From NCBI GenBank assembly GCA_951406725.2, contig OX597840.1, forward strand, positions 12,214,001-12,278,000: a stretch of DNA of 64,000 nt, read 5' to 3'. This DNA comes from Octopus vulgaris (taxonomy: Eukaryota). Below are positions 2,334 through 60,327 of the stretch, in pieces. How positions within the stretch are numbered: the stretch's first letter is position 1; every line of letters starts with the position of its first letter. The translations under genes were made by a program, and so were the position numbers. The notes beneath the pieces are model-generated. The model did no database searches, was not told where the DNA came from, and saw nothing but the letters and a program-made list of their open reading frames with translations.

Positions 2334-3668
2334 TTACATTTGCAAGACCATTTCTGGTGTTTCGCGATTAAGAGGCTTCCGTTCGGTGTGGATCTGTTTG
2401 TGTCTTGTTAAGTGACTGTTGGTGATAAAAGATTTCCCACACACCTCACAGCTGTATGGTTTTTCTCCCGTGTGGCTGCGGATGTGGGTGACAAGATGGG
2501 AATTATTCATGTAAGACTTCCCACATACCTCACAGTGATAGGGTTTTTCCCCAGTGTGACTTCGTTTGTGGATGACAAGGTTCGAATTGTTAGAAAAAGA
2601 CTTTTCACATATATCGCAATGAAACAGTTTTTCCCTGTTGTGTATTCGTTTGTGACTGATTAAATAACTATTATCGATAAAAGCTTTCCCACACACTTTG
2701 CAATGATAGGGTTTTTCCCCTGTATGGATTCGTTTGTGGACAACAAAGTTCGAATTATAATTGAAAGATTTGCCACATGTCTCACAATGAAACGGTTTTT
2801 CTCCCGTGTGGATAATTTTATGCCTTGTTAAATTACTGTTATTAACGAAAGACTTCCCACATATTACACAGTGGAAGGACTTCTCCCCAGTATGGGCCCT
2901 TTTGTGGGTCATTAATTTGGTGTTAGACACAAACGACTTTTCGCATATTTCACAACGGAAAGGTTTTTCTCCTGTGTGACTACGAATGTGGGTAACAAGA
3001 TTCGAGTTTTTCGTGAACGATCGTTCACATATCTGACAGTGGAACAGTTTCTCTTCGTTATGTATTCTTCTGTGGCTTGTCAAATAATTATTGCCGACGA
3101 ATGATTTCCCACAGATTTCACAGTGATACGGTTTTTCCCCAGTATGTATTCGTCTGTGGATAACAAGTTTCGAATTATAATTGAAAGATTTCCCACAGAC
3201 TTCACAGTGAAAAGCCTTTCCTCCTGCGTGAATTCGATTATGACTTGTCAAGTCGCTGTTCGAGACAAAAGACTTCTCACAAATGAGACACTGGAACGAT
3301 TTCGACCCCATGTGTATTCTTCTGTGTCTGTTTAAATCGCCGTTCGAGGCAAAACATTTCCCACATATCTCACAACAGTAGGATTTTTCTCCCGTGTGTA
3401 CCAAGTTGTGTCTGGTTAACTTACTGTTAGAAACAAAGGCTTTCCCGCAGACTTCACAGCGGAAAACTTTCACCTTGTGTATTTCTGTGTGTGTGAATAA
3501 TTCATGTTGTGAAAAAAAGGTTTTACTGCAAATATCGCAGCGATATTCCGTGATATTTCTCTGATCCGTGAATGCTTCGTCGCATGAAGACTTCTCACCA
3601 TTGAATGTCTCTGGAACGGAATCGACATCGTTAAAAACCGTTTTATCCGAAGTATTAACGTCTTCCAT
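2334..3668 (-). CDS. C2H2 zinc-finger protein, 14 tandem fingers, single coding exon (444 aa)
   Basis: 14 C-x2-C-x12-H-x3-H units, mostly joined by TGEKP/S linkers; intact ATG-to-stop ORF. A candidate 5'-UTR splice acceptor (ttattcag|) lies at 3842-3843 on the - strand. Confidence 0.96.
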   Translation of the reverse strand: MEDVNTSDKTVFNDVDSVPETFNGEKSSCDEAFTDQRNITEYRCDICSKTFFSQHELFTHTEIHKVKVFRCEVCGKAFVSNSKLTRHNLVHTGEKSYCCEICGKCFASNGDLNRHRRIHMGSKSFQCLICEKSFVSNSDLTSHNRIHAGGKAFHCEVCGKSFNYNSKLVIHRRIHTGEKPYHCEICGKSFVGNNYLTSHRRIHNEEKLFHCQICERSFTKNSNLVTHIRSHTGEKPFRCEICEKSFVSNTKLMTHKRAHTGEKSFHCVICGKSFVNNSNLTRHKIIHTGEKPFHCETCGKSFNYNSNFVVHKRIHTGEKPYHCKVCGKAFIDNSYLISHKRIHNREKLFHCDICEKSFSNNSNLVIHKRSHTGEKPYHCEVCGKSYMNNSHLVTHIRSHTGEKPYSCEVCGKSFITNSHLTRHKQIHTERKPLNRETPEMVLQM

Positions 3669-4639
3669 ATTAATTAACCAGGAATTCTTAAAAGCAGAAG
3701 AAATGTCTGTGACTATGATCGATTATGGTTCGGTTTCTTGCCTTGGATATCTCTGAATTCTGTTTACATGATTAAATCCAATTAACAGAATTAAATGTCA
3801 AGCTGGGAAGCAGGCGGTGTCGACCATCAAATTTCCCTTGTCTGAATAACACCGGTGACATACGTTAAATGTCCCTAAGTAAGTGACTATCTTTAAATGC
3901 ATTAAAACACTGTAACATGATCTGAACACTATTTCAGAAAGTTATAACCAATCTCATTGAGCATATAAAAAGACAAATTTAGATGGGGCAAAACGAGTAA
4001 GACAAGTTAAGGTAAATTTACCTTTTGAATTCCCTAGAATTAATACATTCAGAAACTCCTGTTACAATAATTTACTCCTTTAACACTATCTAACCTACGT
4101 TAAAAAGAAAAAAAGAAAGGAAAATCATTGACTAAAATAATTGTTGTGTACCAACGAAGAAGCTTCGAAGCAACATTTTTTTCTTTTAAGAAATGGGCTG
4201 CAAAAGACATGACCCATCACCTGGCAGACCACACTAAAAAAAAAACAAAAAAACATCAAGGTAATTTTTCTTTGGTCTTCCATTCAGAAAGTCCCACGGG
4301 CTGTGGTTTGCCAGTGACTGCTCTATATTGTCGTTCGACCTACTATAAAAAGCAGTCAAATTTTATTTGAATCACAACCTACTCTTTCAGTAGAGTGAAC
4401 TATATATTCACCAATGTATTCCAAGATAGGAAAAAAACCCCAAAATCTGAATAAAAAACAAAACGAAACGAAACGAAACTCGATGGTCACTCTTGAAACA
4501 CCTTTCATCATAGGTGAGATCAATGATGTTGATATTGAGCTTAAGCAACACTGTATTGGTATAAGAATTTGGGGCGGGGTACAATAAGGTGTTTAACTGC
4601 ACTTTTGACTTGGAGAAGAAATGTTTATAGCGCACTATA

Positions 4640-5745
4640 TAGGTGCAGGAGTGGTTTGCTTACCAACCACATGGTTCCAGGTTCAGTCCCACTGTGTGGC
4701 ACCTTGGTCAAGTGTCTTCTACTATAGCCTCGGGCTGACCGATGACTTGTGAGTGGATTTGGTCGGCGGAAACTGAAAGAAGCCCGTCGTATATATGTAT
4801 ACATGTATGTGTGTGTGTATATAAAAATAATAATAATAATAATAATTGTGTACAGTGCTCAGGTGCACTACAACTCATCTAAAGTGTATATATAATCAGG
4901 TGTAGTTTCGGCGGATTTCGGAAAGCATGAGGGCCTTAAAAGATGCAGTGTCATGGCAGTCAACAACTGACGCAGGCAGTTTATTCCATGCTTCAGCAAC
5001 TCTGAGCGTGAAAAAATGTTTCCGAAAGTCATGGGAGCTGTATTGTTTTCTGACTTTGTAGGCATGTCCACGTGTGTTAGACACATGGAGATCAAAAAGG
5101 TGTTCAGTGTTGTTGTTGGTGAGGTGGTTGATAACTTTGTGGGTGTTTACCAAGTCCGTCGCCAAATGCCGGAGCTTCAGTGAATCCATGCCCAGGGAAA
5201 CAAGGCGCTCAGAATATGGTAGGTGTCTGATGGAGGGTATGCGTTTGGTTGCACGTCTCTGGACAGATTCCAGGAGGTCAATGTTCTGTGCAAGATAGGG
5301 GTTCCAAACTGATGATGCGAATTCCAAGTGTGGTCGTACCATAGCTGTATACAGTTTTAAATAGATGGCTGGAGAGCGGCTAACAAAAGACCTGCTGAGT
5401 GATGCCAAGACACCCTCGGCCTTCCTGACAATCTTAGAGATATGCTTTGACCAACGCAAATCACTGCTGACAGTGATGCCTAGGTCACGCTCACAAGAGG
5501 ATTTCTTGATATCAGTGTTGTGTTTGTGTGTCTGTGTTTGTGTCCCCCATCATCGCTTGATAACCGATGTTGGTGTGTTTATGTCCCCGTAACTTAGCGG
5601 TTCGGCAAAAGAGACCGATAGAATAAGTACTGGGCTTCTAAAGAATTAGTCCTGGGGTCGATTTGCTCAACTAAAGGCAGTGCTCCAGCATGGCTGCCGT
5701 CAAATGACTGAAACAAGTAACAGAATAAAATAGTAAAAGAGTAAC
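4640..5745 (+). mobile_element. Family-A SINE split by a LINE insertion (head 4640-4822, tail 5521-5745)
   Basis: Both halves match intact copies (e.g. 14589-14990), and the break lies in the internal microsatellite. Confidence 0.85.
4826..5520 (-). mobile_element. 5'-truncated CR1-clade LINE (ORF2 C-terminus, 3'UTR, (TTA)n tail)
   Basis: Translates ...ERDLGITVSSDLRWSKH...VRPHLEFASSVW...ESVQRRATK...TRGH...RKHFFTLRVAEAWNKLP, typical CR1 ORF2 C-terminal motifs; ends in (TTA)n. Confidence 0.9.
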
Positions 5746-15897: not shown

Positions 15898-16333
15898 TTA
15901 TATAAATACTAACAACATTCATAAACGAATAAGCACACATATGTATGTACACACACAAGCATACACACATAGAAACACACATGCACACACACACATACAC
16001 ATAGAGACACATTTATACATGTAAACACACACAAACACACATACACGTCTATAATATATGCATATACACAATGTTAGCCAAGCATACACCTCATTGTTAA
16101 GTCATACACACATATAAATACACACACACACACACACACACACACTTCTTTTATATTTGTTTTGCATTTTCTTGTGTTCTTTATTGTATTTGTTTGTTTC
16201 TTTCTTTCAGATGACCGAGATGATAAGATGTTGATATTTAGAAATAACATCAGTGTGTCACAATTGATTCAAGTCTTCAACAGTTCCTTGCTCATATTTA
16301 ATCTCTACTCTACCGCCGTCAGTACTAAAAGAC

Positions 16334-16588
16334 ATGGCACCGCAGCATTCTGCCACAGTCAGATATTTTCATGTATTGTATCTCATCCTGCTTCCTTTCT
16401 GCGAAGGATTCTCCATTGACCATACACTCATAGAAGGAAATGTTGGAGGCAAAATAGCTGAAACTGTTGTGATCCTTGTAAAATCTCAGAATATTTTGAT
16501 GGAAGATTATTCTTTCCTCCGCAGACTGGCAGCTGTCCAAAGTAACGATGGTATACCATTCACTCCTGATAAAGGTGGCATCTGGAGG
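16334..16588 (+). CDS. Secreted lysozyme-like/chitin-binding protein, coding exon 1 (signal peptide and start of the lysozyme/SLT-like domain)
   Basis: Acceptor tttctttcag| at 16210. ATG at 16334 gives MAPQHSATVRYFHVLYLILLPFCEG-FS (signal-peptide-like) ... FLRRLAAVQSNDG...GGIWR, then donor |gtaagg, phase 0. Confidence 0.85.
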
Positions 16589-16640
16589 GTAAGGTTCTAT
16601 AATCTTTTCTGTTTCTTTGTTTCTACTTTCCTTCTTTCTC

Positions 16641-16716
<76 letters not shown>

Positions 16717-17319
16717 TGTCGTCTGTTTTTCTGCCTTTCCTTCCTTCCTTTCTTCCTTCATTCCTTCGTTTGTTCCCTTTTTCCTTCCTTTAAACTTTGA
16801 AATAGATTATGACTGAACAAAAAATGTGTGGCACCTTGGGCAAGTATCTTCTGCTGTAGCCCCAGGCTGACCGAAGCCTTGTGAGTGGATTTGGAAGACG
16901 GAAACTGAATATATATGTATATATATTTATGTGTGTTTGTGTCTGTGTTTGTCTCCCCACCATGACTTGACAACCGATGTTAGTGTGTTTATGTCCCCGT
17001 AACTTAGTGGTTTGGCAAAGGAGACAGATAGACTAAGTACTAGGCTTACAAAGAATAAGTCCTGAGGTCAATTTGTTTCACCAAAATCCTTAAAGGCAGT
17101 GCTCCAGCATGGCTGCAGTCAAATAACTGAAATATGTAAAAGAATAAAAGAGAAAAATAAAATAAAGAAGAGAGTCTCAAGTTTTCCCATCTGGGGTACC
17201 CCTTTCCCATCTGGGGTACCCAGGTGGTGTTGGGGTACCTCATGTGAAGAATATAACATAAAATCTTTGTATACTAGAAAACAGACAATAGAAGTGTATT
17301 ATCTATTACTATTATTTTA

Positions 17320-17650
17320 TTCTATTGTGTCTGGAGAGAGTCATTTTCTTTTTGTGCCTTATTATGTAACACACTCGCCGGTAAAATTTCCACTATTTTC
17401 TTATTTTTTATTGTCCAAAAATTTTCGCGTTTTGCAACCTTTTCAATAGTCTTGACTATTGAAAAGGTTGCAAGATGCAACGAAAATTTTAGGACAATAA
17501 AAAATAAGAAAATAGTGGAAATTTTACCGGTGAGTGTGTTACATTATAAGGCACAAAAAGAAAATGACTCTCTCCAGACACAACAGAATATGCTTCAACA
17601 CACGAACTCATATAAAGGATCTTGCAAACCAAATCCCAAAACGAAATATT
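17320..17650. mobile_element. Penelope-like pLTR hairpin (arms about 17320-17451 / 17454-17589)
   Basis: Near-perfect palindrome with a 2-nt loop; same family as 11040-11211. Confidence 0.7.
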
Positions 17651-17865
17651 ATTTTATTCTTTTACTTGTTTCAGTCATTTGACTGAAACCATAAGAGGTT
17701 TTAGTTGAAGAAATTGACCCCAGGACTTATTCTTTGTAAGCCTAGTACTTATTTTATCAGTCTCTATTGATGAACTGCTAAGTTACAGGGATATAAACAC
17801 ACCAACATCAGTTGTCAAATGATGGTGGGGGAGACAAACACAGCCACGACACAAATATATATATA

Positions 17866-18781
17866 CAGGGTGCAGTAAATAAACTGTCATCTAAATTATG
17901 CAAAAATGGAAATAACACTCATATCTCAATTTAACAGATATATTTACCAAAATTACATAAAAATATCTTGAAATTCTAAAGAGTAAATTTATTCCATGAA
18001 ATCGCCATTGGTTTCAACCATGGCCTACAAACGACTTTGGAATCCCCTGCAACTCTTCTTGATGGTCTCCTTGTTTAACTTGATGAATCTGGCCATAATC
18101 CTTGCCTTCAGTTCATCTTTGGTGTTACAAGGAGTTTTGTTGGTCTCTCGCTCAACTTAAATCCGAAACACAATGGGGTTGCAATCTGGGAAGTTCCGTG
18201 GCCAGATGGTAGGGGTGATGTGGATGCAGAAATTGTCTGACAGCCATGACTAGGTTCTCCTGCTTGTGTGGCATGGAGCAGAGTCCTGTTGCCAAACATA
18301 GGGTCTTCCATCAGCCGCCCTCTTTACCCAGGGCAGCACTACCTCCTCCAGGCACTTGATGTAGGCCTCTGTGTCGAGTCAGAGGCTGTGTGGGAAGATG
18401 AATGGAACCATAATGTCACCTTCACTTGTTATCACTCCAAACATGATGATGTTGACTGGATGTTTGATTTTTATCACTCTCGGTCCATGTCCTCAGATTG
18501 ACACCCAAACACTCTGAAATGTTCCTATTGGAACTTCCAGTGCAAATGCCAAGTGGCACAGCGTGTCGTTTTCAAATTTCTGGCAGAGTGAATTGTGTCA
18601 TGATGCTGTTTTTCTCACAGGACTCTGTCGAGGCCCCACGATTGGAATGAGTACACTTCAAATACCAGGTATTGGGGTCAATATAACCAAAATACTGTGT
18701 AGTTGACAGAATCAAAATCAAACAATATGCATGCACGAAATAAAAAATATAAAATGGCGACAATTTACCCATTGCACCCTG
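17866..18781 (-). mobile_element. Internally deleted maT-like (DD37D-type) Tc1/mariner transposon inserted in a family-A SINE
   Basis: TA|CAGGGTGCA...TGCACCCTG|TA termini. Minus strand reads, with stops, KHPVNIIMFGVITSEGDIMVPFIF...YIKCLEEVVLPW...YVWQQDSAPCHTS...IWPRNFPDCNP. Spacing after the second D fits D37D, but the third Asp is not retained. Confidence 0.82.
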
Positions 18782-20074
18782 TATATATGTATATATACAT
18801 ACACACACACACATATATATATACATATACACATGCACACATACACACACATATACGACAGGTTTCTTTCAGTTTCCATCTACCAAATCCACTACATGGC
18901 CTTGGTATAGTATATATTTGCCCAAGGTGCCACACAGTGGGTCTGAACCTGGAACCATGTCGTTGGGAAGTAAGCTTCTTACCACACAGCCAATTTAAAG
19001 AGCTCAAATCCCACCACGATCAGCTTTGCCTTTTATCACTCTGGGGTGGATAAAATAAAGTACCAGGTATTGGGGTCAATATAACCAACTGCTCCATTCC
19101 CTCAAATTTCTGGTTCTGTCTGTCCCAATTAGTTGTTACATCTTTAATGAGAGGGACTTGCTTGGTGCTTTCTGACCAGGAACTTAATTCTAGACATAGT
19201 TTCAGAGAGACTCTCCTGTCTATCATTCATAATTTTTGCATGAAATTTAGTTTTGATTTGAAAAGAGGTGGGGCAAAAAGAGTAATTTTTGATTTTCTTA
19301 TTTTCTTTCTACTTATTTTGAAATCATTACATTGCAAGATTGAATCATCATTTTGCACTGTGGCATCATCTTTAGGAGTAAAAATTGGTCAGCATAGTTG
19401 TTATTGTTGAAGTTGAGAAAGTTTGGAATATAGTCAGGTGACAGGTACATTTTTTTGAAAAGATTTTTCCTCAACTTTGCCCTGAGGCTGCTAATAAAAT
19501 ATCTGTATAGTTTTTGGTGTTTAACATTAAATATTCTTTTCTCTGTTGGATTCCAAGTTTGATTTGATAATAGTCAATGCAAAAAAGAAACAAAAAAAAA
19601 CAAACAAAACTTAAGGTGGGGCAAAATGAGTAATCACTAATTTTAATAATTTCTTTTTTTTTTACCTGTATGGTGCATAAATAGCATAAATATATCAGGA
19701 AGGGAGCCACTCGAGCAGATCGTGAAGAAGCTATAACTTATATTTTATGCTGAAATTTTATGCATTTTTCTTTGATCCTCTTTCATTATTTGCTCTAGAT
19801 ATCTGAAATTTTTGTAGCTTTTCTGATATTTCTGATGCCTAAGGATGGATATTGATGTGTTTGAGTCTTATTTAAAAATGTAATTCTAAGGAGTTCAAGA
19901 AGGAAATTTACCTTATCTGTCCTTACTTATTTTGCCCCGTATAAATTTGTCTTTTTATGCTGAAAGGGAACGGAGTTAATTTTTCTGAAATAATGATCTG
20001 AATATAGTGTTTTTAATGCATTTAAAGAAGGCTATTTGCTTAGCTGATATAGTTTTTGCAAGGTAGTGAACATA

Positions 20075-21405
20075 GGGCGCAGGAGTGGCTGTGTGGTAAG
20101 TAGCTTGCTTACCAACCACATGGTTCTAGGTTCAGTCCCACTATGTGGCACCTTGGGCAAGTGTCTTCTAGTATAGCCTCAGGTTGACCAAAGCCTTGTG
20201 AGTGGATTTGGTAGACGGAAACTGAAAGAAGCCCGTCGTATATATGTATATATGTGTGTTTGTGTGTCTGTCCCCCCAACATCGCATGATAACCAATGCT
20301 GGTGTGTTTACATCCCTGTAACTTAGCGGTTTGGCAAAAGAGACCGACAGAATAAGGACTAGGCTTACAAAAGAATAAGTCCCGGGGTCGATTTGTGCGT
20401 GTATGTTTGTGTGTCTGTGTTTGTCACCCTAGCATCGCTTGACAACCGATGCTGGTGTGTTTACGTCCCAGTCACTTAGAGGTTCGGCAAAAGAGACCGA
20501 TAGAATAAGTACTGGGCTTACAAAGAATAAGTCCCGGGGTCGATTTGCTCGACTAAAAGCGGTGCTCCAGCATGGCCACAGTCAAATGACTGAAACAAGT
20601 AAAAGAGTATTTGTAAAAATTATATTTATTCTCAAAGTAAATATTACTCATTGTGCCCCGCCCATCCTTTATAATCATTGCTAAGAAAATATTTCCCCAA
20701 ATTATTAGTTCAATCCAGCATCAGCCGAATCATCTTGATTTCAGGATCCTTTCATATTTATTGGGTGTTTTTGAGGAGGAAATGTGATTCTAAATTTATT
20801 TATCGAGCAAAAGAGTACTTGTGGTGGTGACCCCTTCGGTCAGACACTGACCATGGGTTTGCATCTAGAGAGTTACCCTCTGAGGCACAAGTCTGGGCAA
20901 GGTTGTTTTTTTTTTTTTTATGGAAGACCGGCAGTCGCCCATGCATACCGGCCTCCCCTCTCCACGTCACCGATGTTGTCCAAGGGAAAGGCAACAGCCG
21001 ATACAGCTTGGCACCTGTGACGTCGCAACTCATTTCTACAGCTGAGTGAACTGGAGCAACGTGAAATAAAGTGTCTTGCTCAAGAACACAACACGCAGCC
21101 CGGTCCGGGATTCAAGCTCACAACCTCATGATCGTAAGCTCGACGCTCTAACCACTGAGCCACGCGTCTTCACACAAAGAGTACTTATTAGATGAATAAA
21201 GTATACGCAAGGAAATTAAGACATAACATGTAAGAAAAATTACAAGCACAAGGGTGGCTGTGTGATGAGAAGTTTACTTCCCAACCACAAGGTTCTGGGT
21301 TCAGTCCCATGTGTGGCACCTTGGGTTAGTATCTTCTTCTATAACCTCGGGCTGGCCAAAGCGTTGTGAGTGGATTTGGTAGACAGAAACTGTCGTACAC
21401 ATACA

Positions 21406-21492
<87 letters not shown>

Positions 21493-21672
21493 GTGTGTGT
21501 ATGTGTCTTTGTGTCTGTGTTTATGTCCTCATAACTTAGCAGTTTAGTAAAAGAGACCAATGGAATAAATTCAAGACTTTAAAAAATTATAAGTACTAAG
21601 GTTGATTTATTCAACGAAAATATTCTTCAAGGTGGTGCCCCAGCATGGCCACAGTCTCCCGACTGAAACAAG
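20075..21672. mobile_element. SINE cluster: family A (20075-20608 +, tail partly duplicated), family D (20825-21173 -), family A (21248-21672 +)
   Basis: Consensus matches to the other copies. Confidence 0.85.
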
Positions 21673-21957
21673 GAGATGATAATAACAAAATGATAAACTG
21701 AGAATCAAATGTGTAAATATTCGTTTCTACTCTAGGCACCACTAAGGGTAGGTGTTACTGTAGTTTTTAGCCCCAGGAGATCATCGTCTCCAGCTGGCTT
21801 TAGGCACACTTTCTGTGCCTAAAATAATAGCATAATAGAAATGGTAAGAAATGGTAAAAAAAGTCAATTTCAAGGTGATAGCCATAAGCCATGGGATTAC
21901 GTCTTGTGGTAAAGAAAGTCACTTTCAGGAGTAATTTCCACAGGTTATGAGAGTTAC

Positions 21958-22185
21958 TTATAATAATAAAAATGAAATTATTGTATACAGTGCTCAGGTG
22001 CACCACAACTTGTCAGAAAGTGCCTATAAAGTACATGCAGTAATGTACAAATGTCTGGAAAGCAAACAGTGTATGAGTCAGATACATGCTTGTGTGTGTA
22101 TGGAGGGGAGAAAATCAAGTGTAGTGTTGGCGAATCTCAGGAAGCATGGAAGTTTTGAAGGATGCAGTGCTCCGACAACTAACAT
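21958..22185 (-). mobile_element. Short CR1 LINE 3' end
   Basis: Homologous to 4826-4965 (ACAGTGCTCAGGTGCAC..., GCATG...AAGGATGCAGTG), with a (TAA) tail. Confidence 0.7.
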
Positions 22186-22513
22186 CCTAGTTCAATTTTA
22201 CTGGGAGAAATAGCGAGGGTAAGGCATTGTGGAGTGAGTTTAATGGGATGGTCCATATCACAGGGGTCAAAAGTTAGAGGCTAACTGCTATTTAATAGAG
22301 CATCACAGAAAAAAAAAACGACAAAGGTAACTTAATGTGAACTTGTTTGGGGAAATCAGTAGAAAAGTATATCAATGAAAGAATAATTTGGGTAAAACCT
22401 GAGTACGATGTTATTACTTATTAAGAAAAGCCTCATCCTAATACCCCTATGAAGAATAGGGGGAGGCCGTAGTTAATCCTACAACTTAATTGGTCTGCTA
22501 ATATTTGAAAAGT

Positions 22514-22825
22514 GGAGGTGCAATGGCCCAGTGGTTAGGGCAGTAGACTTGCAGTCGGAGGATCATGGTTTCGATTCCCAGACCGGGCGTTGTGTGTGTT
22601 TATTGAGTGAAAACACTTAAAGCTCCACGAGGCTCCTGCAGGGGGTGGTGGCGATCCCTGTTGTACTCTTTCCCCCCAACTTTCTCTCACTCTTTCTTCC
22701 TGTTTCTTGAGTAATGCTGCGATAGACTGGCATCCTATGCAGCAGGGGGGAACACATACACCACAGAAACCGGGAAACAGGGCCCATGAGCCTGGTTAGG
22801 CTTAAAAAGGGCGCATAAAAAAAGA
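22514..22825 (+). mobile_element. Family-C SINE head with an alternative 3' tail
   Basis: Same head as 10028, but after ...CTTCCTGTTTCT it switches to a tail ending GAGCCTGGTTAGGCTT..AAGGGCGCATAAAA; same structure at 32379-32660. Confidence 0.8.
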
Positions 22826-23271
22826 AATATTTGAAAACAAGGGCATTTGTTCAGGTCTGATAATTCTATCAATAAAATTCAAGAAAAATAAAAACCTTGA
22901 AATTGACTTTTTTCATCAGTTGTTGGCTGTCTATCTACTCCTCATTTCAAGCATTCAATGACAATACACACACACACACACACACATATGAATCTGTGTG
23001 TGTGTTTTTGTCTTTTTGCCTGTGTTTGTTCCCCCACCATTGCTTGACAGCCGATTATGACTGATAGAATAAGTACCAGGCTTAAAAAAAAAAAATAGGA
23101 ACAAATGTTCTGGGGTTGATTAATTTGACTAAAATTTTTCATGATTGAAACAAGCAAAAGTTGTACACACACGCATGTGCACACACACACACACACACAC
23201 ACACACGCTCACAAACAAACACACACACACACACACACAAACACAAACACAAACACACACACACACATGCA

Positions 23272-23306
<35 letters not shown>

Positions 23307-23596
23307 GCACACAAACACACATACACACACACACATACACACGTTAACAAACAAACACACACACACACAAACACAAACAAACACAAACACACACACACAC
23401 ACAAACACACATACACACACTCAGTTTCTGTCTATGAAATCCACTCACATGGCTTTGGTTGGTTCAGACCTATATGTAGAAGACACTTGCCCTAAATTTC
23501 ACAAAGTGGGATTGAACTCAGAACCATGTGGCTGTGAAGCAGACTTCTTACCACACAACCTCACTAACACCAATTAAATCTATCCAATTATTCTAG

Positions 23597-23876
23597 GTTA
23601 CCACTGACCAACTCGAGACTGTCCAAGAGGCATGTGGTAAAAGCCTATTGTCTTACTGCAATATCGGTCAAGAAAGATTCAATGTGGAAATGGTATCAGC
23701 CAATTACACAGAACTGGACAAGCCATTGTATTCTGGCTACGCCATGGCCCTCTACCTATTGACCCTCGGTGATATTATACCAATGAATTTGACCGACCAA
23801 GCAGAATATTGGAAGAAATTTATTGTACCTGAAGGAAATGTCACCACTTTTATACAAAATACTAACATTCCAGAAG
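23597..23876 (+). CDS. Secreted lysozyme-like/chitin-binding protein, coding exon 2
   Basis: Acceptor ttctag|, phase 0, in frame with exon 1: VTTDQLETVQEAC...LDKPLYSGYAMALYLL...IPMNLTDQAEYWKKF...NIPE-G; donor |gtaag, phase 1. Confidence 0.85.
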
Positions 23877-24531
23877 GTAAGAAAACTACCGAAAGATCTT
23901 TATTGTTGTTGTTAAACCTCTTGTCTTTTATCTTTTACTTGTTTCAGTCATCAGACTGTGGCCATGCAGGAGCATCACCCTGAAGAATGAATTGACTGCA
24001 GAGCTTTTTTTTTTTTTAAGCTTGGTACTTATTTTATCAGTAACATATTGAATACTGGTTCAATTTACTATATACTGTCTGGGTATTATTAATGTAAACA
24101 CCCAAGGCAGTGAGCTGGCAGAATCATTAGCACGCTGGGCAAAATGCTGAGCGGTATTTCGTCTGCCGTTATGTTCCGAGTTCAAATTCTGCCGAGGTCG
24201 ACTTTACCTTTCATCTTTTTGGGGTCGATTAAATAAGTACCAGTTATGCACTGGGGTTGATATAATCAAGTTAATCTGTTTGTCTGTCCTTGTTTGTCCT
24301 CTCTGTGTTTAGCTTCTTGTGGGTAGTAAAGAAATAGGTATTTTGTCTGTCTTTAATTTCTGAGTTCAAATTCCGCTGAGGTCGACTTTGCCTTTCATCC
24401 TTTCGGGGTCGATATAATCGACTGACTCTTCTCTCTCAAAATTTCAGGCCTTGTGCCTAGAGTAGAAAAGAATGTCTTACTCTTATTGATTGAATTATTT
24501 TGGCTTTCCTTTTTTCTTCTTTCCATTTCAG

Positions 24532-24908
24532 TGCCGGACCAATGTAGAAAATCCGAAGACACACCAAGGAATGAAGTGGAATCTTACTGTTTATTCCAGT
24601 CACCGTGTACAAGAGAAGCGATTGCACTCAAAATATATTTCTTTGCTCATTCAGATCCGACGAGATTCATTCGGTGTACGGAATGGGGAGCTAGTTTCAT
24701 TCAAATCTGTGTTCCTGGCACCGTATGGTCTCAAATGAATGTTACATGTTTACACAAGGCAGGAAGTTTTATCTTTAGACGCAAAAAAGGTGGAGGAACC
24801 AAGGACAAGCATTATCTCAACAATGCATCTCATATTTTCTCTGCTTTACTTCCTTGCTTAATGTTCTGTCTTCTTCAAGCATTCATCTTAAATAAGAGTT
24901 TCTTCTAA
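24532..24908 (+). CDS. Secreted lysozyme-like/chitin-binding protein, coding exon 3 (CBM14/peritrophin-A-like domain and GPI-like tail)
   Basis: Long polypyrimidine acceptor ttccatttcag|; phase 1 matches exon 2. Six Cys including SPCT...HSDPTRFIRCTEWG...ICVPGTVWSQMNVTC; ends NNAS + hydrophobic HIFSALLPCLMFCLLQAFIL and TAA. Spliced CDS is 912 nt, 303 aa. Confidence 0.82.
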
Positions 24909-24968: not shown

Positions 24969-25560
24969 AACTTTGTTTCCTCATAACTTTCTGAAAAATG
25001 CATTTTTTTTTTATGAAATTTTCTACAAAAACCTTTCAGATAGTGTTGATTCTCATTATAATGGAATTTATTGCAGAAAATGTTTTTGGAGGGGCAGGGA
25101 GTGGAGTTTTGGATAATTCATACAAGTCAACTTTGTTTCCTCATAACTTTCAGAAAAATAGGTATTTTTTAATGAGTTTTTTAAGAAATACCTTTCAGAG
25201 AGTGTTGGTTCTCATTATAATGGAATTTGTCATGGAAAGTGTTTCTTCATGGGGTAGGGAGAGGAGTTTTGGATAATTCATACAAGTCAACTTTGTTTCC
25301 TCATAACTTTCAGAAAAACAGGTATTTTTTAATGAGTTTTTTAAGAAATACCTTTCAGATAGCGTTGGTTCTCATTATAATGGAATTTGTCATGGAAAGT
25401 GTTTCTGGATGGGGTAAGGAGAGGAGTTTTGGATAATTCATACAAGTCAAATTTGTTTCCTCATAACTTTCAGAAAAGTAGATATCTTTTGAAGGAATTT
25501 TCTACGAATAGCTTTCAGATGGTATAGATTACAATTATACCAGAAATTAATGTGAAAAAA
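24969..25560. repeat. 160-bp tandem repeat, about 3.5 units
   Basis: AA(C/A)TTTGTTTCCTCATAACTTT recurs at 24969, 25129, 25289 and 25449; diverged inverted homolog near 29420-29540. Confidence 0.9.
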
Positions 25561-42042: not shown

Positions 42043-43713
42043 TTGCGTCGGAAATTAATTAGCACTTCTCAAATTTCTACATTTTCTTACATTTTCTTAA
42101 TTTAATTAACTCGTTTTTAATCAAAAATTTATTAAAACATATCCCAGCACACCACATAATTGTTATTAATCGTGAAATTTAGTCAATATCTTGTTGCTCC
42201 TCCTTTGGCAGCAATGACAGCTGCTACGCTGGTCGGCATGCTGTCTATGAGTGTCTGCAGGTACTGTGCAGGGATGGCCCTCCATGCAGCAAGAAGTGCC
42301 TCAAACAGCTCGTGTCGGTTCCTGTATTGCTGCACATTCAAATCCCTACCCAATCGACTCCAGAGGTTCTCAATAGGGTTCAGGTCAGGTGACCGGCCAG
42401 GCCAGTCCATGACCGTCACCCCATGGTCCTTGAAAAAACCGGTTGTGAGCTTGGCTGTGTGGGAAGGCGCGTTGTCCTGCTGGAGCATGTACTCCTCGCC
42501 ACCAAAGAGGTATCCCGTACTATCTCAACGTACTTTGCTGCGTTGATGTTGCCTTCGACGGCATAGAGCCGCCCAACACCACTGTAGCTGAACGCCCCTC
42601 ACACCATCAGACCACCCCCACCATGCTTCATGGTGGGAGCAATGTGGTCTTTGTTGAAGTGCTCACATGGACAGGCTTGTCACTGACGAGACTGAATCGC
42701 GACTCGTCAGTGAACATCACTGTCCGCCACTGCTGCACGGTCCATATCTTGTGGGCACGGGCCCAGAGCAACCGCCTCTTCCGGTTTTGGGCTGTAAGGA
42801 GCGGCTTACGGGCGGCCCTACAGGATTTTAGACCAGCTTCCAGTAATCTGGTCTTGACGGTGGTTGTAGACAACTGCTTCCCTGTCATCTTTTGCATCTC
42901 CTCCGCCAGTTGCCGGCTCGTTGCCCTTCAGTTGTACAGTGACTTTCGGATCAGCATCCGGTCCTCCCGCTGGGTCGTCAGCCTCTTCCGTCCCCTACCC
43001 TTTTTGTCAGCTGCTGATCCAGTTTCCTCGTATTTCTTAAATAAGCACTGAATTGTGCGCCTGGCTACACCAAGTTTTCTGGCTATTGCAGCCTCCGACA
43101 GCTTCCCACGCCACGAGAGAGCCTCGTATCATCTCTCCAAGGTCATGCGAGGTCTTGGGCCCATCTAGGAATGAACGATAAAAACCAGTTATTTTCATTA
43201 AAACTATTCATTTGAATAATGTTATGCTATAACAAAACTGCTATGAGTTATTATTCATGAAACAAAAAAGAAAGAAAGCAGAATTTCTCACCTATTTGAT
43301 GTATAACAGAAAGTTTTGTGAACCGGAAGTGACGTCACCAAGCAGAGTGTAGGAGAATTTGTGAGGAAAAAAATCTTGCAAATACACAAATCAATTAACC
43401 TATGAGCTGTTCAAAACATCTTACGCGATGAGAAAACTTAGTACGGTGTGATTTCGGTCCTTGCGAGGCGCTACCTATATCTATTAAACAAAGGAAGATT
43501 TGTCTGCATCCGCACTCCAAGTTGTTGTTGCACTGCTATGTCAACATCATTAGGCTGTAGACTCTCAAACCGCTCTGCAAACAAAATTACGTCATCGTTC
43601 TGCGCAACAGTGAACTCGCAACAAAGCAATAGTTCAAGATATGGCCACTAGGTGACAGCAAATACCTTGAGTGAAGAGCAAATCAAGGTGCTAATTAATT
43701 TCTGACGGTAGTG
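42040..43713 (-). mobile_element. Tc1 transposon (DD34E), TIR to TIR, inactive
   Basis: TA TSD; 26-bp TIRs CACT(TG/AC)CGTC(G/A)GAAATTAATTAGCAC. Transposase 43164 to 42183 has an HTH region, GRGRK, FTDESRF and QQDNAPSH...SPDLNPIE with 34 aa between D and E; in-frame TGA stops and frameshifts. Confidence 0.93.
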
Positions 43714-44119: not shown

Positions 44120-44810
44120 TTGCCAAGGCACACTCAGCAGTCTAGGGCAAGTGAAGGATAAGAGATGTTACAGTATAACTGAAGCAGGGGCAGCAGCGAA
44201 ATATCTCCATGTACAACACAGACATTTAGATTGATAGGGGTTTTTCTAAGGTCGTGGGCAGTACTTGTCAACACAATCTTTTGGATTTCTCTGAGACATG
44301 GTTCTCCTGGGATGTCATTTAGATGTTTCTGACACCTCTTTTTAATCATACCTACAATAACAGGGACGGTTTTTGCTTTAAGATGCCACATCTTTTGTGT
44401 TTCAATTTCCATGTCCTTATACTTACTAAGTTTGTCAAATTTCTTTACAGATATATTTTTATCAGTAGGAACACTTACATCGGATCTTTTCCTTTTGAAC
44501 AGCACATGTCAGCACAATTTCTAGTTAACTAAACACTTTAAAACTTCGTATACTGGTAGAATGTGTCTTCCCTGTCCTTAATAATTATGTTTAGTCGATT
44601 AGCCTGGATTGTTCTGTCAGTGTTGAATGCAAAATCCCAGACGATAGTTACATTTTTACCTCAGGACGATATTCATACCAGTAAGCAGGGATACCGATTT
44701 TGTAGTGCTTATATATTTTCCAATGTAAATACTGTCCTACCCTATTGTGCTGACTTTTGTATTCACTTATTGTCAACATAGGACATCTGGAAACGAGATG
44801 GTCTATTGTT
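44120..44810 (-). mobile_element. R4/Dong-clade LINE fragment (CCHC region and restriction-like endonuclease) interrupted by a Merlin-MITE end (about 44482-44567)
   Basis: IDHLVSRCPML...HNRVGQYLHW, IVWDF..TDRTIQANR, DVSVPTDKNISVKKFDKLSKYKDMEIETQKMW...IQKIVLTSTAH. Confidence 0.85.
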
Positions 44811-57949: not shown

Positions 57950-59345
57950 GCAGGTTGCACGGTATTCTCGCTTGTGCTGGTGGAATTACGAAGGACCCAG
58001 TCCTTTGTGTAAAGTGGTTGGTTTTATGAAGGGCGTTCAGCTGTAGAAACCTTACCAAAATAGACAATGGAGCATGATGCAAGCCCTTGGACATGTTGGG
58101 TCCTGTCAAACCATCCAAGTCATGCCACCATGGAATCATCATCATCATCATCATCATTTAACATCTGTTTTCCATGCAGACATGGGCTGAATGGTTTGAC
58201 AGGAGCTGGTAAGGCCAGGCGTCACACAAAGTTCCGTTGTCTGTTCTGGCATGGCTTCTACAGCTGGATGCCCTTCCTAATGCCAACCACTGTACTGGGT
58301 GCTTTATATGTGGCACTATGGAGCTGGTAGGGCTGGGAGCTGTACCTAGTTCCATTGTCTGTTGTAGAATGGGTTCTATGACTGGACGCCCTTCCTAAGA
58401 CCAACCACTTTACAGAGTGGACTGGGTATCTTTTATGTGGCACCATGGAGCTGGTACTGCCAGAAGCCCTTCCTAATGCCAACCACTTTACAAAATGTAC
58501 TGGGTGCTTTTTATGTGGCATCAGCACCAGTGCTGTTAATGTAGCACCAGCATGAATACTTTTTATATGGTACTAGCATGTGTATGCTTTTCATGTGGCA
58601 CCAACGCAAGAACTTTTAATGTGGCACCAGCATGAGTGCTTTTCATGTGGCACAGCACAAGTGCTTTTCATGTGGCACCAACACAAGTACTTTTAATGTG
58701 GCACCAGCATGAGTGCTTTTCATGTGGCACAGCACAAGTGCTTTTCATGTGGCACCAACACAAGTACTTTTAATGTGGCACCAGCATGAGTGCTTTTCAT
58801 GTGGCACAGCACAAGTGCTTTTCATGTGGCACCAACACAAGTACTTTTAATGTGGCACCAGCATGAGAGCTTTTCATGTGGCACTAGCATGAGTGCTTTT
58901 CATGTGGCACCAGCATGAGTGCTTTTCATGTGGCACAGCACAAGTGCTTTTCATGTGGCACCAACGCAAGTACTTTTAATGTGGCACCAGCATGAGTGAT
59001 TTTCATGTGGTACCAACACAAGTGCTTTTAATGTGGCACCAGCACAAATAGTTTTCATGTGGTACCAGCTGTAGTGGATGGGTCTTCTTGAGTAGAGCAA
59101 GGTGCCTGACATAAGGCCCAGTGTCTTGAGTTTGGTCTTCAATATTTCACCCCATGTGTTCCTGGGTTTCCCTCTTCCACAAGTTTCATCCACATGAAGT
59201 GATCGCCCCTTCTGTATGCAACTGTCTACATCCGTATACATCACATAACCAAACCAATGTAGTCTTCTCTCTTGCACACTGCATTTAATTCTTATACCTA
59301 ACTTTTCTCTCAATATACTAGCATTGATTTTCCACATCCAGTAGA
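57950..59345 (-). mobile_element. RTE LINE 3' portion: ORF C-terminus (59070-59345), minisatellite-expanded 3'UTR and (GAT)n tail
   Basis: LREKLGIRIKCSVQERRLHWFGYVM...SCIQK...CGRGKPRNTWGE; (CAT)n at 58135-58157 on +. Confidence 0.8.
58520..59070. repeat. 26-bp minisatellite with a 77-bp higher-order period
   Basis: ACACAAGTACTTTTAATGTGGCACCA recurs at 58681, 58758 and 58835, made of 26+25+26-nt subunits. Confidence 0.9.
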
Positions 59346-60327
59346 GCTTTTGTATACATCTATGTGTGTGTGTGTCTTTCTGTCTGTGTTTGTCCCCCAC
59401 CACCCATTTACAACCAGTGTTGGTGTGTTTACATCCCCGTGACTTAGTGGTTCAGCAAAAGCGACCGATAGAATAAGTACCAGGCTTAAAAACAACCCCA
59501 CCCCAAAAAAAAAACAGGTACTGAGGTTGATTCATTCAACTAAAAATTCTTCAAGGCGGCACCCCAGCATGGCTGGAGTCCAATGACTAGAACAAGTACA
59601 AGATCAAAAAAAAAATAGATAAAAAATAGTCTTTGGTAGCTTTTAACAAAATTAAAACCCATGTCAATGAACTGTTAATTCTCAATATTCAATAATTCCA
59701 TTTTATTGATTTATTCCTATGCAACAACATATTTTATTAAAATTACTTCATACACAATAATGGTACCCCCCCACAAAAAAAAGCAAAAAACCTGAAAGGA
59801 TCATGCTTCAAGTTATGCAGGCATGTATACACCACCTCCGTATTTTTATTACATGAAATAACATTTTCTGGTGTAAAACACATGTTTTGGAAGCTTATCA
59901 AGGGAAATTGAATTACATATCAACAATAAACATTCAAATCTCTGCAGTGGTCTGCTCTATTTTCGTATGGTGCAACGAAAATTGTTTCAAAATTTGGTAT
60001 GTACCCAGCAATTTTAAGAGCAGGGTGTAAGTTGGTTACATCAATTCCAATGTTCAGTTGGTGCTTATTTTATTAACCCTGAAAGGATGAAAGGCAAAGT
60101 TAACCCTAGTGGCCATTTGAACTCAGAGCGTAGAGAACCAAAAGAAATGCTACTGAACATTTTGTCTGACACGCTAATGACTCAGCCAGTTCACCTCCTA
60201 AGTAAGTAATTAAGTAATAATAATAATAATAATAATAATGATAATAATAATAATAATGATAATAATAATGATAATAATAATGATAATAATAATGATAATA
60301 ATAATGATAATAATGATAATGATGATG

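What the first reader, a model, noticed from the sequence alone, without database searches (positions are those of the whole stretch)
16334..24908. Uncharacterised surface protein: pseudo-lysozyme domain, chitin-binding domain and GPI-like tail
Seen: three exons splice in matching phases into 303 aa with a signal peptide, a six-Cys CBM14-like domain, several N-glycosylation sequons, and an NNAS + hydrophobic C-terminus. From memory, the N-terminal domain fits an uncharacterised invertebrate family (FLRRIAxVESxDG...GGIWQV...KPLYSxxAAxLxL...QAxYWKxxYN) whose motifs parallel lysozyme-like/lytic transglycosylase motifs (catalytic E-S, GxxQ, YN). Here all three are altered: AAVQS (Q69), GIWRV and YWKKFI. 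Inference: a catalytically dead glycan-binding fold tethered to the membrane beside a chitin binder. It is a candidate pattern-recognition receptor or an organiser of chitinous structures (beak, radula, sucker cuticle, gut lining).
Basis: partly seen in the sequence, partly recalled or inferred. Interest (0 to 1): 0.75.

Follow-up and report, generated by a model that had tools for sequence, protein, structure and literature searches.

The report
Disarmed phage-lysin relative on octopus cells
This octopus gene encodes a probably membrane-anchored protein whose lysozyme-shaped domain has lost its catalytic residue and belongs to a poorly described invertebrate family whose closest non-animal relatives found are unannotated bacteriophage proteins that look like lysis enzymes, which suggests a viral enzyme recycled by animals.

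Summary
The gene is real. Three GT-AG exons give 303 aa, 2 substitutions from Octopus sinensis XP_036370543.1, with a conserved Argonauta ortholog.

Residues 26-176 model at high confidence as a lysozyme-like fold (MltE Z 9.4), with Q69 in register with the catalytic Glu.

New here: the family's closest non-animal relatives are PHROG 3108 phage proteins (hhalign 99%, E 4e-19). All 11 examined keep Glu, Gln and Asn at the motifs, and one sits beside a holin and an Rz-like spanin.

Glu loss is not special to this copy. All 15 domains of the octopod-containing clade lack it, and the trait changes at least 15 times in the family tree.

The C-terminal module has a CBM14 fold but is a four-Cys variant, not six-Cys. 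It lacks the residues that bind chitin in CHIT1 and Avr4, so chitin binding is unproven. GPI anchoring is inferred from sequence only.

Best reading: a non-catalytic surface tether for chitin- or GlcNAc-rich matrix; pattern recognition is a weaker rival. The family-level phage link matters more than this copy.

The parts
16334..16588 (+). Coding exon 1 (residues 1-85): signal peptide and first half of the lysozyme-like domain
16334..16408 (+). Predicted signal peptide (about residues 1-25); hydrophobic core 11-22; a hydrophobic leader ending in GFSIDHTL is also present in Argonauta
   Evidence: hydropathy, ortholog alignment; SignalP not run
16538..16540 (+). Codon CAA = Q69, the position of the catalytic Glu of lytic transglycosylases and of the invariant Glu of PHROG 3108
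16589..23596 (+). Intron 1 (GT-AG, phase 0), repeat-rich
23597..23876 (+). Coding exon 2 (residues 86-179): second half of the lysozyme-like domain, which ends near residue 176
23877..24531 (+). Intron 2 (GT-AG, phase 1)
24532..24908 (+). Coding exon 3 (residues 179-303 and stop): linker with C183 and C198, CBM14-fold module, basic stretch, GPI-like tail
24600..24755 (+). Four-Cys CBM14/peritrophin-A-fold module (residues 202-253; C204, C227, C238, C251); 49 of 52 residues identical in Argonauta
24777..24788 (+). Basic stretch RRKK (261-264; RRKN in Argonauta), a possible convertase or shedding site (inference)
24822..24905 (+). GPI-like signal: candidate omega site N276 (N-A-S), 27 residues from the end, then a hydrophobic stretch without a long cytoplasmic tail
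   Evidence: NetGPI not run
16211..16333 (+). Likely 5' untranslated part of exon 1, behind a strong splice acceptor at 16210; implies a further upstream exon (inference)
   Evidence: pyrimidine fraction 0.89; acceptor used by the CAI9741779.1 model

Best explanation
A conserved octopod cell-surface pseudo-enzyme. The protein is secreted, N-glycosylated and probably GPI-anchored. Its N-terminal domain descends from a lysozyme-superfamily enzyme shared with PHROG 3108 phage proteins (probable endolysins). The catalytic Glu was lost before the octopod paralogs diverged, so the domain cannot act as a general acid. This copy also lacks the VWA domain and most of the CBM14 repeats of the common lysozyme-like + VWA + CBM14 architecture of its mollusc and annelid relatives. 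Most likely mode of action: a non-catalytic tether on an epithelial surface that holds, without cutting, a beta-1,4-GlcNAc-rich extracellular layer (chitin or its glycoprotein partners), with the dead cleft and the CBM14-fold module as two binding surfaces; it may be shed at RRKK or at the anchor. SHOWN: gene model, both folds (as predictions), Glu loss, clade-wide loss, conservation, phage homology. INFERRED: GPI anchoring, inactivity, ligand, tissue, matrix role, direction of transfer.
For: Gene and ortholog: (Octopus vs Argonauta: 118/151 identical in the lysozyme-like domain, 49/52 in the CBM module, but 8/25 in the signal peptide and 16/40 in the tail, the pattern of purifying selection on both domains). 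Fold: pLDDT 88-98 in the ten-residue blocks over 31-170; the 6 chains at Z>=8 of 48,161 are five lytic transglycosylases and a glucosaminidase (MltE Z 9.4, rmsd 3.1, 119 aligned). Register: Q69 aligns with MltE E64 and phiKO2 gp54 E41. Glu in 88 of 123 animal-type domains and 11 of 11 phage proteins. MltE E64Q is titled an inactive mutant in PDB. Clade of 15 domains, 0 with Glu, support 100/98 with the Glu column removed. A-to-I editing of CAA cannot give Glu (established chemistry). Partner domains are matrix modules: 34 of 222 family proteins are L-VWA-CBM, 24 are L-VWA; VWA + CBM14 is the Pif/BMSP matrix architecture (PMC11291548). Hydrophobic C-terminal tails in 21 of 222 family proteins.
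Against: No binding or expression data. The CBM module lacks the C2-C6 pair and has T250, L252 and H253 where CfAvr4 has W100, D102 and Y103 and CHIT1 has W465 (register inferred from the range ends; papers). Its best Foldseek match, Der p 23, and the molluscan EHEP are reported not to bind chitin; the same paper notes that binding residues are not conserved among CBM14s that do bind. R85 and loss of the aromatic-Asn motif may also have closed the lysozyme cleft. Foldseek against PDB gave no match at E<=1e-3, Z of 9 is middling for a helical domain, and the profile match to E. coli transglycosylases is weak (6-8% probability). The O. vulgaris automated model lacks the signal peptide.
Confidence: 0.45

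Rival explanations
1. Pattern-recognition or bacteria-trapping protein: the dead cleft binds peptidoglycan on mucosal or haemocyte surfaces and holds microbes or presents them to a signalling partner, in the manner of non-catalytic PGRPs.
For: The nearest non-animal relatives look like peptidoglycan-cleaving phage lysins; Glu-to-Gln is the classic substrate-trapping change (4hjy, MltE-E64Q with chitopentaose, is the top structural match).
Against: No intracellular signalling part. Motif-II Gln and the aromatic-Asn motif, invariant in 11 of 11 phage proteins, are lost here. Family partners are matrix modules. No expression data.
Confidence: 0.2
2. Both domains have left carbohydrate binding and serve as protein-protein (or small-molecule) interaction modules at the cell surface, for adhesion or as a co-receptor.
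For: The known binding residues are altered in both domains, yet the CBM module is 49/52 identical to Argonauta, more than a lost ligand site would need. EHEP and Der p 23 are CBM14 folds without chitin binding; EHEP binds tannins (PMC10619976).
Against: No partner is identified; CBM14s bind chitin through different residues in different proteins, so absence of W465/W100 equivalents is not decisive.
Confidence: 0.25
3. The domain is still an enzyme, using another acid (for example D72 or D58) or regaining Glu by deamidation or editing.
For: D72 is present here and in 84 of 123 domains; D58 in 116 of 123.
Against: D72 is not kept across the octopod clade and is absent from the phage proteins that keep Glu; paralogs carry R, K or N at position 69; CAA can be edited only to Arg or a synonymous codon.
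Confidence: 0.05
4. The gene is a decaying remnant, or the true product is the signal-less O. vulgaris model (intracellular, no surface role).
For: CAI9741779.1 uses an exon at window 4483-4557 and a cryptic intron that removes the signal peptide.
Against: O. sinensis RefSeq and two Argonauta records have the signal-bearing form; four sequons, all ectodomain Cys and both domains are conserved.
Confidence: 0.05

Closest known systems
PHROG 3108 (unknown function): phiKO2 gp54, Klebsiella phage VLCpiS6a S6a_00066, Pseudomonas phage PSA28, Shewanella/Vibrio/Pseudoalteromonas phages, uncultured 636-kb phage LR756504.1
   Same: Full-length homology to the N-terminal domain (hhalign 99.1%, E 4.3e-19, 141 columns; 19 of 28 family members hit phrog_3108, best E 7.8e-19; the top BFVD matches include A0A6J5QT34 at E 6e-7, rmsd 2.4, and three 148-154 aa viral proteins at TMt 0.65-0.70).
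   Different: The phage proteins examined are single-domain and keep E, GxxQ and aromatic-N in 11 of 11. The octopus protein itself does not reach E<=0.1 against PHROGs and scores E 0.01 against a phage profile; the link runs through the family. Their lytic activity is inferred from gene context, not tested.
Family 1 lytic transglycosylases / GH23 (E. coli MltE, MltC, Slt70; phiKZ gp144; Ralstonia GH23 chitinase)
   Same: Lysozyme-like fold (Z 8.7-9.4 for the five best; 7.7 for the chitinase); E-S and G-x-x-Q motifs in register.
   Different: 8-14% identity, TM-score about 0.4 by target; no Pfam SLT or GH23 hit in 28 family members; catalytic Glu absent; motif III is YWKxxYN, not AYNxG.
[quoted passage not shown]
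   Same: Same superfamily; g-type lysozymes are also proposed to come from an old horizontal transfer (PMC12855814, passages).
   Different: Structurally more distant than the transglycosylases (salmon g-type Z 5.6, destabilase 6.3, silkworm c-type 4.8); no sequence match by profile to any PDB chain.
CBM14 / peritrophin-A (Avr4, Der p 23, EHEP, CHIT1 ChBD, Blo t 12, tachycitin)
   Same: The 8 best structural matches of the module are all of this kind (Avr4 Z 7.5, rmsd 1.7, 57 aligned); Cys spacing fits C1, C3, C4, C5 of the PAD motif.
   Different: Four Cys (C2-C6 pair missing), below the Pfam cut-off, no Trp at the CHIT1/Avr4 binding positions.
Pif/BMSP shell-matrix proteins (VWA + CBM14 + laminin G)
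   Same: Relatives of this gene combine VWA and CBM14-like repeats, as Pif/BMSP do (PMC11291548, abstract and section 12).
   Different: This protein has no VWA or laminin-G domain; no lysozyme-like N-terminal domain is mentioned for Pif/BMSP in the section read.

Membership tests
Lysozyme-like superfamily | Lysozyme-like core fold | tested here: met
   High-confidence model; all 6 chains at Z>=8 are transglycosylases or a glucosaminidase; nearest Pfam-bearing Atlas clusters are SLT, Lys, GH134 and Phage_lysozyme2, as leads only
Active lytic transglycosylase / GH23 enzyme | Catalytic Glu at the end of the core helix (E-S) | tested here: not met
   Q69, also Q in Argonauta
Active lytic transglycosylase / GH23 enzyme | Motif II G-x-x-Q | tested here: not met
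   GIWR; Q in 11 of 11 phage proteins but only 32 of 88 Glu-bearing animal domains
Active lytic transglycosylase / GH23 enzyme | Pfam SLT or GH23 profile match | tested here: not met
   No hit for P0001 or P0002 or for 28 of 28 family members
Active lytic transglycosylase / GH23 enzyme | Cleavage of peptidoglycan or chitin | not testable with these tools
   needs an assay
Invertebrate lysozyme-like family related to PHROG 3108 | Full-length profile homology, FLRRxAxxxSxDG / GGIW / KPLYSG / QAxYW | tested here: met
PHROG 3108 as phage endolysin | Lies in a lysis cassette with holin and spanin genes | tested here: inconclusive
   Clear in VLCpiS6a (adjacent LydA holin E 1.3e-12, Rz-like spanin E 1.4e-9) and, by eye, the near-identical PSA28 locus. 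Of the other 9 of 11 loci, phiKO2, VPHZ6 and yong1 have small neighbours, several hydrophobic, without a firm lysis-family hit, and the rest show no annotated lysis genes
CBM14 / peritrophin-A | Distorted beta-sandwich fold | tested here: met
CBM14 / peritrophin-A | Six-Cys motif with three disulfides | tested here: not met
   four module Cys; 221 of 311 related repeats also hold four
CBM14 / peritrophin-A | Pfam CBM_14 gathering score 22.1 | tested here: not met
   18.1-19.9 bits
CBM14 / peritrophin-A | C-terminal aromatic binding residues (CHIT1 W465; CfAvr4 W100, D102) | tested here: not met
   T250, L252, H253; register from the ends of the aligned ranges; papers
CBM14 / peritrophin-A | Binds chitin | not testable with these tools
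   needs an assay
GPI-anchored proteins | Signal peptide, small omega/omega+2 residues, terminal hydrophobic stretch, no cytoplasmic domain | tested here: inconclusive
   Pattern met by eye and hydropathy in Octopus and Argonauta; no predictor available; a short single-pass tail is not excluded
Pif/BMSP | VWA domain plus CBM14 plus laminin G | tested here: not met
   no VWA in the protein or the window

The most novel reading that the evidence does not exclude
Invertebrates carry an unrecognised lysozyme-type family, distinct from the c-, g- and i-types, that entered animals once from a PHROG 3108-type phage endolysin, early enough to be shared by brachiopods, annelids, molluscs and echinoderms. 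Glu-bearing members are active muramidases or chitinases fused to VWA and CBM14 modules. Octopods disarmed their branch of the family and reused it as a set of surface glycan-binding or matrix-organising proteins. By the same link, PHROG 3108 is an unannotated endolysin family.
Probability: 0.4. Interest if true: 0.82.

Novelty: new variant of a known kind. Interest (0 to 1): 0.62.

Why it matters
Dead lysozyme-fold proteins and CBM14 fusions are known kinds, so the single gene is of moderate interest. The family is the larger point. It has no Pfam model and no profile match in PDB, and my ten literature searches found no paper on it. It is nonetheless present in at least four animal phyla and is far closer to an unannotated phage family than to known animal lysozymes. 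If the Glu-bearing members are active, this adds a new animal lysozyme or chitinase type of probable viral origin and gives a function to PHROG 3108. The octopod clade then offers a clean natural series, from active enzyme to pseudo-enzyme, in which neofunctionalisation can be tested with simple binding and hydrolysis assays.

Tried and rejected
Sequence and profile searches that found nothing: Pfam on exons 1 and 2 gave no meaningful hit. phmmer of the whole protein against PDB gave only E>=0.57. The 50-row alignment searched against PDB was swamped by VWA hits; the domain-centred 28-row profile found 0 PDB chains at E<=10. hhalign against MltE alone gave 0.3% probability, and a local profile scored MltE below zero.

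Structure: Foldseek against PDB had no match at E<=1e-3 for either model. In the full-length model the CBM part was poorly predicted, so it was folded alone. No complex prediction was run.

Bacterial relatives: the scan of bacterial and archaeal genomes with one animal-type protein gave 1 locus among 60 pattern matches, a prophage-like region. This method needs exact peptides, so the bacterial range of the family is not established.

Ideas rejected: RNA-editing rescue of the Glu (codon CAA). 'All three motifs altered' as three independent signs of death (only position 69 discriminates inside the animal family). A six-Cys module. A tandem paralog in the window.

Literature: ten searches found no paper on this family; five locus ids and the PHROG number gave 0 papers. 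The Der p 23 primary paper is not held. Subscription journals and supplements, including shell, beak and eggcase proteome tables, were not searched, and a member could be listed there under another name.

Unchecked: metagenome and viral contig collections; 439 of the 589 library hits (not listed); squid, cuttlefish and nautilus orthologs; dN/dS (no Argonauta DNA at hand).


Full report
OBSERVATION. A search with exon 2 alone returned a 303-aa RefSeq protein of Octopus sinensis (XP_036370543.1, LOC118768355) and an Argonauta hians ortholog. The window's product differs from the RefSeq protein at 2 of 303 positions and is identical from residue 26 on to O. vulgaris CAI9741779.1, so the window is most likely O. 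vulgaris. Identity to Argonauta is 118/151 in the N-terminal domain, 21/25 in the linker and 49/52 in the Cys module, against 8/25 in the leader and 16/40 in the tail; four sequons and Q69 are shared. This is what purifying selection on both domains would give; dN/dS could not be computed.

THE FAMILY. A full HMMER search gave 589 proteins at E<=1e-3, of which 150 were listed; some match through the Cys module only. Among the 155 proteins then held, an iterated profile found 137 domain hits; the 123 of at least 111 residues were aligned. Position 69 is E in 88, Q in 17, R in 4 and other residues in 14. Of 269 proteins held later, 222 carry the domain: 128 alone (many may be exon fragments, my inference), 34 with VWA and CBM repeats, 24 with VWA, 20 as tandem copies, 7 with CBM only, and 9 in other arrangements. 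Hydrophobic C-terminal tails occur in 21 of 222, including the Glu-bearing Lingula protein. Pfam has no model for the domain (0 relevant hits in 28 members). Both searches are biased samples: one started from the octopus protein and the other from a 28-row profile.

FOLD AND CATALYTIC SITE. With a 50-row alignment, AlphaFold2 gave pLDDT 88-98 in the blocks over residues 31-170. Of 48,161 PDB representatives, 6 reached Z>=8: MltE (9.4, rmsd 3.1, 119 aligned), MltC, Slt70, Pseudomonas Slt, phiKZ gp144 and a glucosaminidase; most of the 50 listed rows are titled as lysozyme-superfamily enzymes. Foldseek gave the same families without significance (MltE E 0.53, TM by target about 0.4). Profile alignments to five E. 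coli transglycosylase domains are weak (6-13% probability, E 0.002-0.006), but each puts position 69 on the E-S motif and GGIWxV on GLMQ. I therefore accept the fold with high confidence and the Q69 = E64 register with good confidence. The Q69 codon is CAA, so A-to-I editing, which is common in coleoids (my knowledge), cannot restore Glu.

PHAGE LINK. 19 of 28 family members match PHROG 3108 (unknown function), best E 7.8e-19. tblastn with one member found 21 phage records at E<=1, led by an uncultured 636-kb phage (E 7e-19, 38% identity) and phiKO2 gp54. The family profile and a profile of 11 phage or prophage proteins align over 141 columns at 99.1% probability, E 4.3e-19, with Q69 on gp54 E41. 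All 11 keep E, the motif-II Q, an aromatic residue at 161 and N at 162. The best viral structure matches are much closer than the transglycosylases (A0A6J5QT34 E 6e-7, rmsd 2.4; three 148-154 aa proteins at TM 0.65-0.70 by target). In Klebsiella phage VLCpiS6a the gene is followed by a LydA-type holin (E 1.3e-12) and an Rz-like spanin (E 1.4e-9); PSA28 has the same arrangement by sequence. In the other nine loci the context is only suggestive or uninformative. I infer that PHROG 3108 is an endolysin family; this is untested. The octopus protein is itself too diverged to hit PHROGs directly.

TREE. I built a maximum-likelihood tree (IQ-TREE, LG+G4, 147 columns, Glu column removed) from 131 of 260 animal-type domain hits (those of at least 126 residues among the first 158 proteins plus seven further ones) and the 11 phage proteins. 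The phage proteins are one side of a branch (99/94). All 13 domains from named octopod records group with two unnamed ones at 100/98, and none of the 15 has Glu (9 Q, 4 R, 1 N, 1 K). Outside that clade 95 of 116 animal-type domains have Glu. The Glu/non-Glu trait needs at least 15 changes, so loss is recurrent, for example in Patella and Littorina copies. Limits: few columns, bootstrap not fully converged, no mixture model, root assumed on the phages, thin phage sampling. The tree does not show the direction of transfer, and Glu-bearing octopus paralogs may hide among the unlisted hits.

THE CYS MODULE. Folded alone it reaches pLDDT above 90 over about 40 residues, and its 8 best matches are all CBM14-type: Avr4 (Z 7.5), PfAvr4, Der p 23, Aplysia EHEP, CHIT1, Blo t 12, tachycitin and Der f 23. 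It has four module Cys, conserved in 305-311 of 311 related repeats; C198 appears in 5 of 311. The spacing matches C1, C3, C4 and C5 of the PAD motif, whose pairs are C1-C3, C2-C6 and C4-C5 (PMC10619976, passages), so one whole disulfide is absent. CHIT1 needs W465 (PMC4844120, passages) and CfAvr4 needs W100 and D102 (PMC6128652, passages); the equivalent positions here are H253, T250 and L252, by a register inferred from the ends of the aligned ranges. PMC10619976 states that EHEP and Der p 23 do not bind chitin, and also that binding residues differ among those that do. Chitin binding is thus open.

MECHANISM. Shown: a conserved two-domain protein with a hydrophobic leader and tail, a lysozyme fold without its acid, and a reduced CBM14 fold. 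Inferred: secretion, GPI anchoring at about N276 and inactivity. I give most weight (0.45) to a non-catalytic tether for a chitin- or GlcNAc-rich extracellular layer, because the family's partner domains are matrix modules, as in Pif/BMSP (PMC11291548, abstract and section 12), and there is no signalling tail. Protein-partner binding without glycan (0.25) and peptidoglycan recognition (0.2) are real rivals; residual catalysis and a decaying or intracellular gene get 0.05 each.

COMPARISON AND NOVELTY. It works like other dead lysozyme-fold binders, but it is not a member of GH23/SLT or of the animal c-, g- or i-type lysozymes by profile or by catalytic residue. Horizontal origin of animal lysozymes has precedent: g-type from a bacterial transglycosylase (PMC12855814, passages); a bacterial lysozyme family moved across domains (PMC4241558, listing and abstract start only); phage-type lysozymes in bivalves (recalled, not retrieved). 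Other papers seen: PMC7333891 (passages) and PMC6139136 (passages; it lists phiKO2 spanins as singletons), neither describing this family. Ten searches found no description of it; subscription journals and supplements were not searched.

VERDICT. New variant of a known kind, interest 0.62, mostly for the family and its phage link.

Noticed in passing
window 2334-3722 (-): Intact 462-codon frame with about 14 tandem C2H2 zinc fingers (Pfam zf-C2H2 E 1e-77), typical of the octopus C2H2 expansion (recalled).
   Followed up: partly
window 4483-4557 (+) and 16211-16408: The O. vulgaris record CAI9741779.1 uses an exon at 4483-4557, the strong acceptor at 16210 and a cryptic intron ending near 16406, which removes the signal peptide. 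Probably a mis-model; a real signal-less isoform is not excluded.
   Followed up: partly
window 17318-17590: Near-perfect long palindrome in intron 1: 110-nt arms, 96% complementary, 53 nt apart, with a further inner stem. Foldback element; a potential double-stranded RNA editing substrate.
   Followed up: no
window 17855-18792: About 0.9-kb element with 34-nt inverted ends flanked by TA, resembling a decayed Tc1/mariner-type transposon (recalled resemblance; the fragment tested had no Pfam hit).
   Followed up: partly
window 42183-43128 (-): Three successive frames that read like a frameshifted Tc1-type transposase (identification from recalled motifs, not scanned on that strand).
   Followed up: no
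window 4896-5549 (-), 44134-44508 (-), 58951-59451 (-): Frames resembling C-terminal parts of LINE reverse transcriptases (by eye); no Pfam hit at E<=0.01.
   Followed up: partly
window 24969-25520: A 160-bp tandem repeat (3.5 copies, 88% match) begins 60 nt after the stop codon, in the probable 3' UTR; the first AATAAA/ATTAAA lies about 1 kb downstream.
   Followed up: no
L009:2333-2830 (NC_049477.1, YP_009885067.1): Annotated as 'DNA-directed RNA polymerase subunit alpha' but a clear PHROG 3108 member (E 1.6e-41): a likely misannotation of a lysin-like gene.
   Followed up: partly
L006:2923-3534 (LR756504.1): A 636-kb uncultured phage record holds three places matching the family; one copy is the phage protein closest to the animal domains and lies among ribonucleotide-reductase-like and topoisomerase-like genes, not in a lysis cassette (neighbours identified by eye).
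   Followed up: partly
O. vulgaris records CAI9741682.1, CAI9741735.1, CAI9741736.1, CAI9741779.1: Several family records list the same longest-contig length (40,227,843) and nearby accession numbers, suggesting a paralog cluster on the same chromosome as this gene.
   Followed up: no
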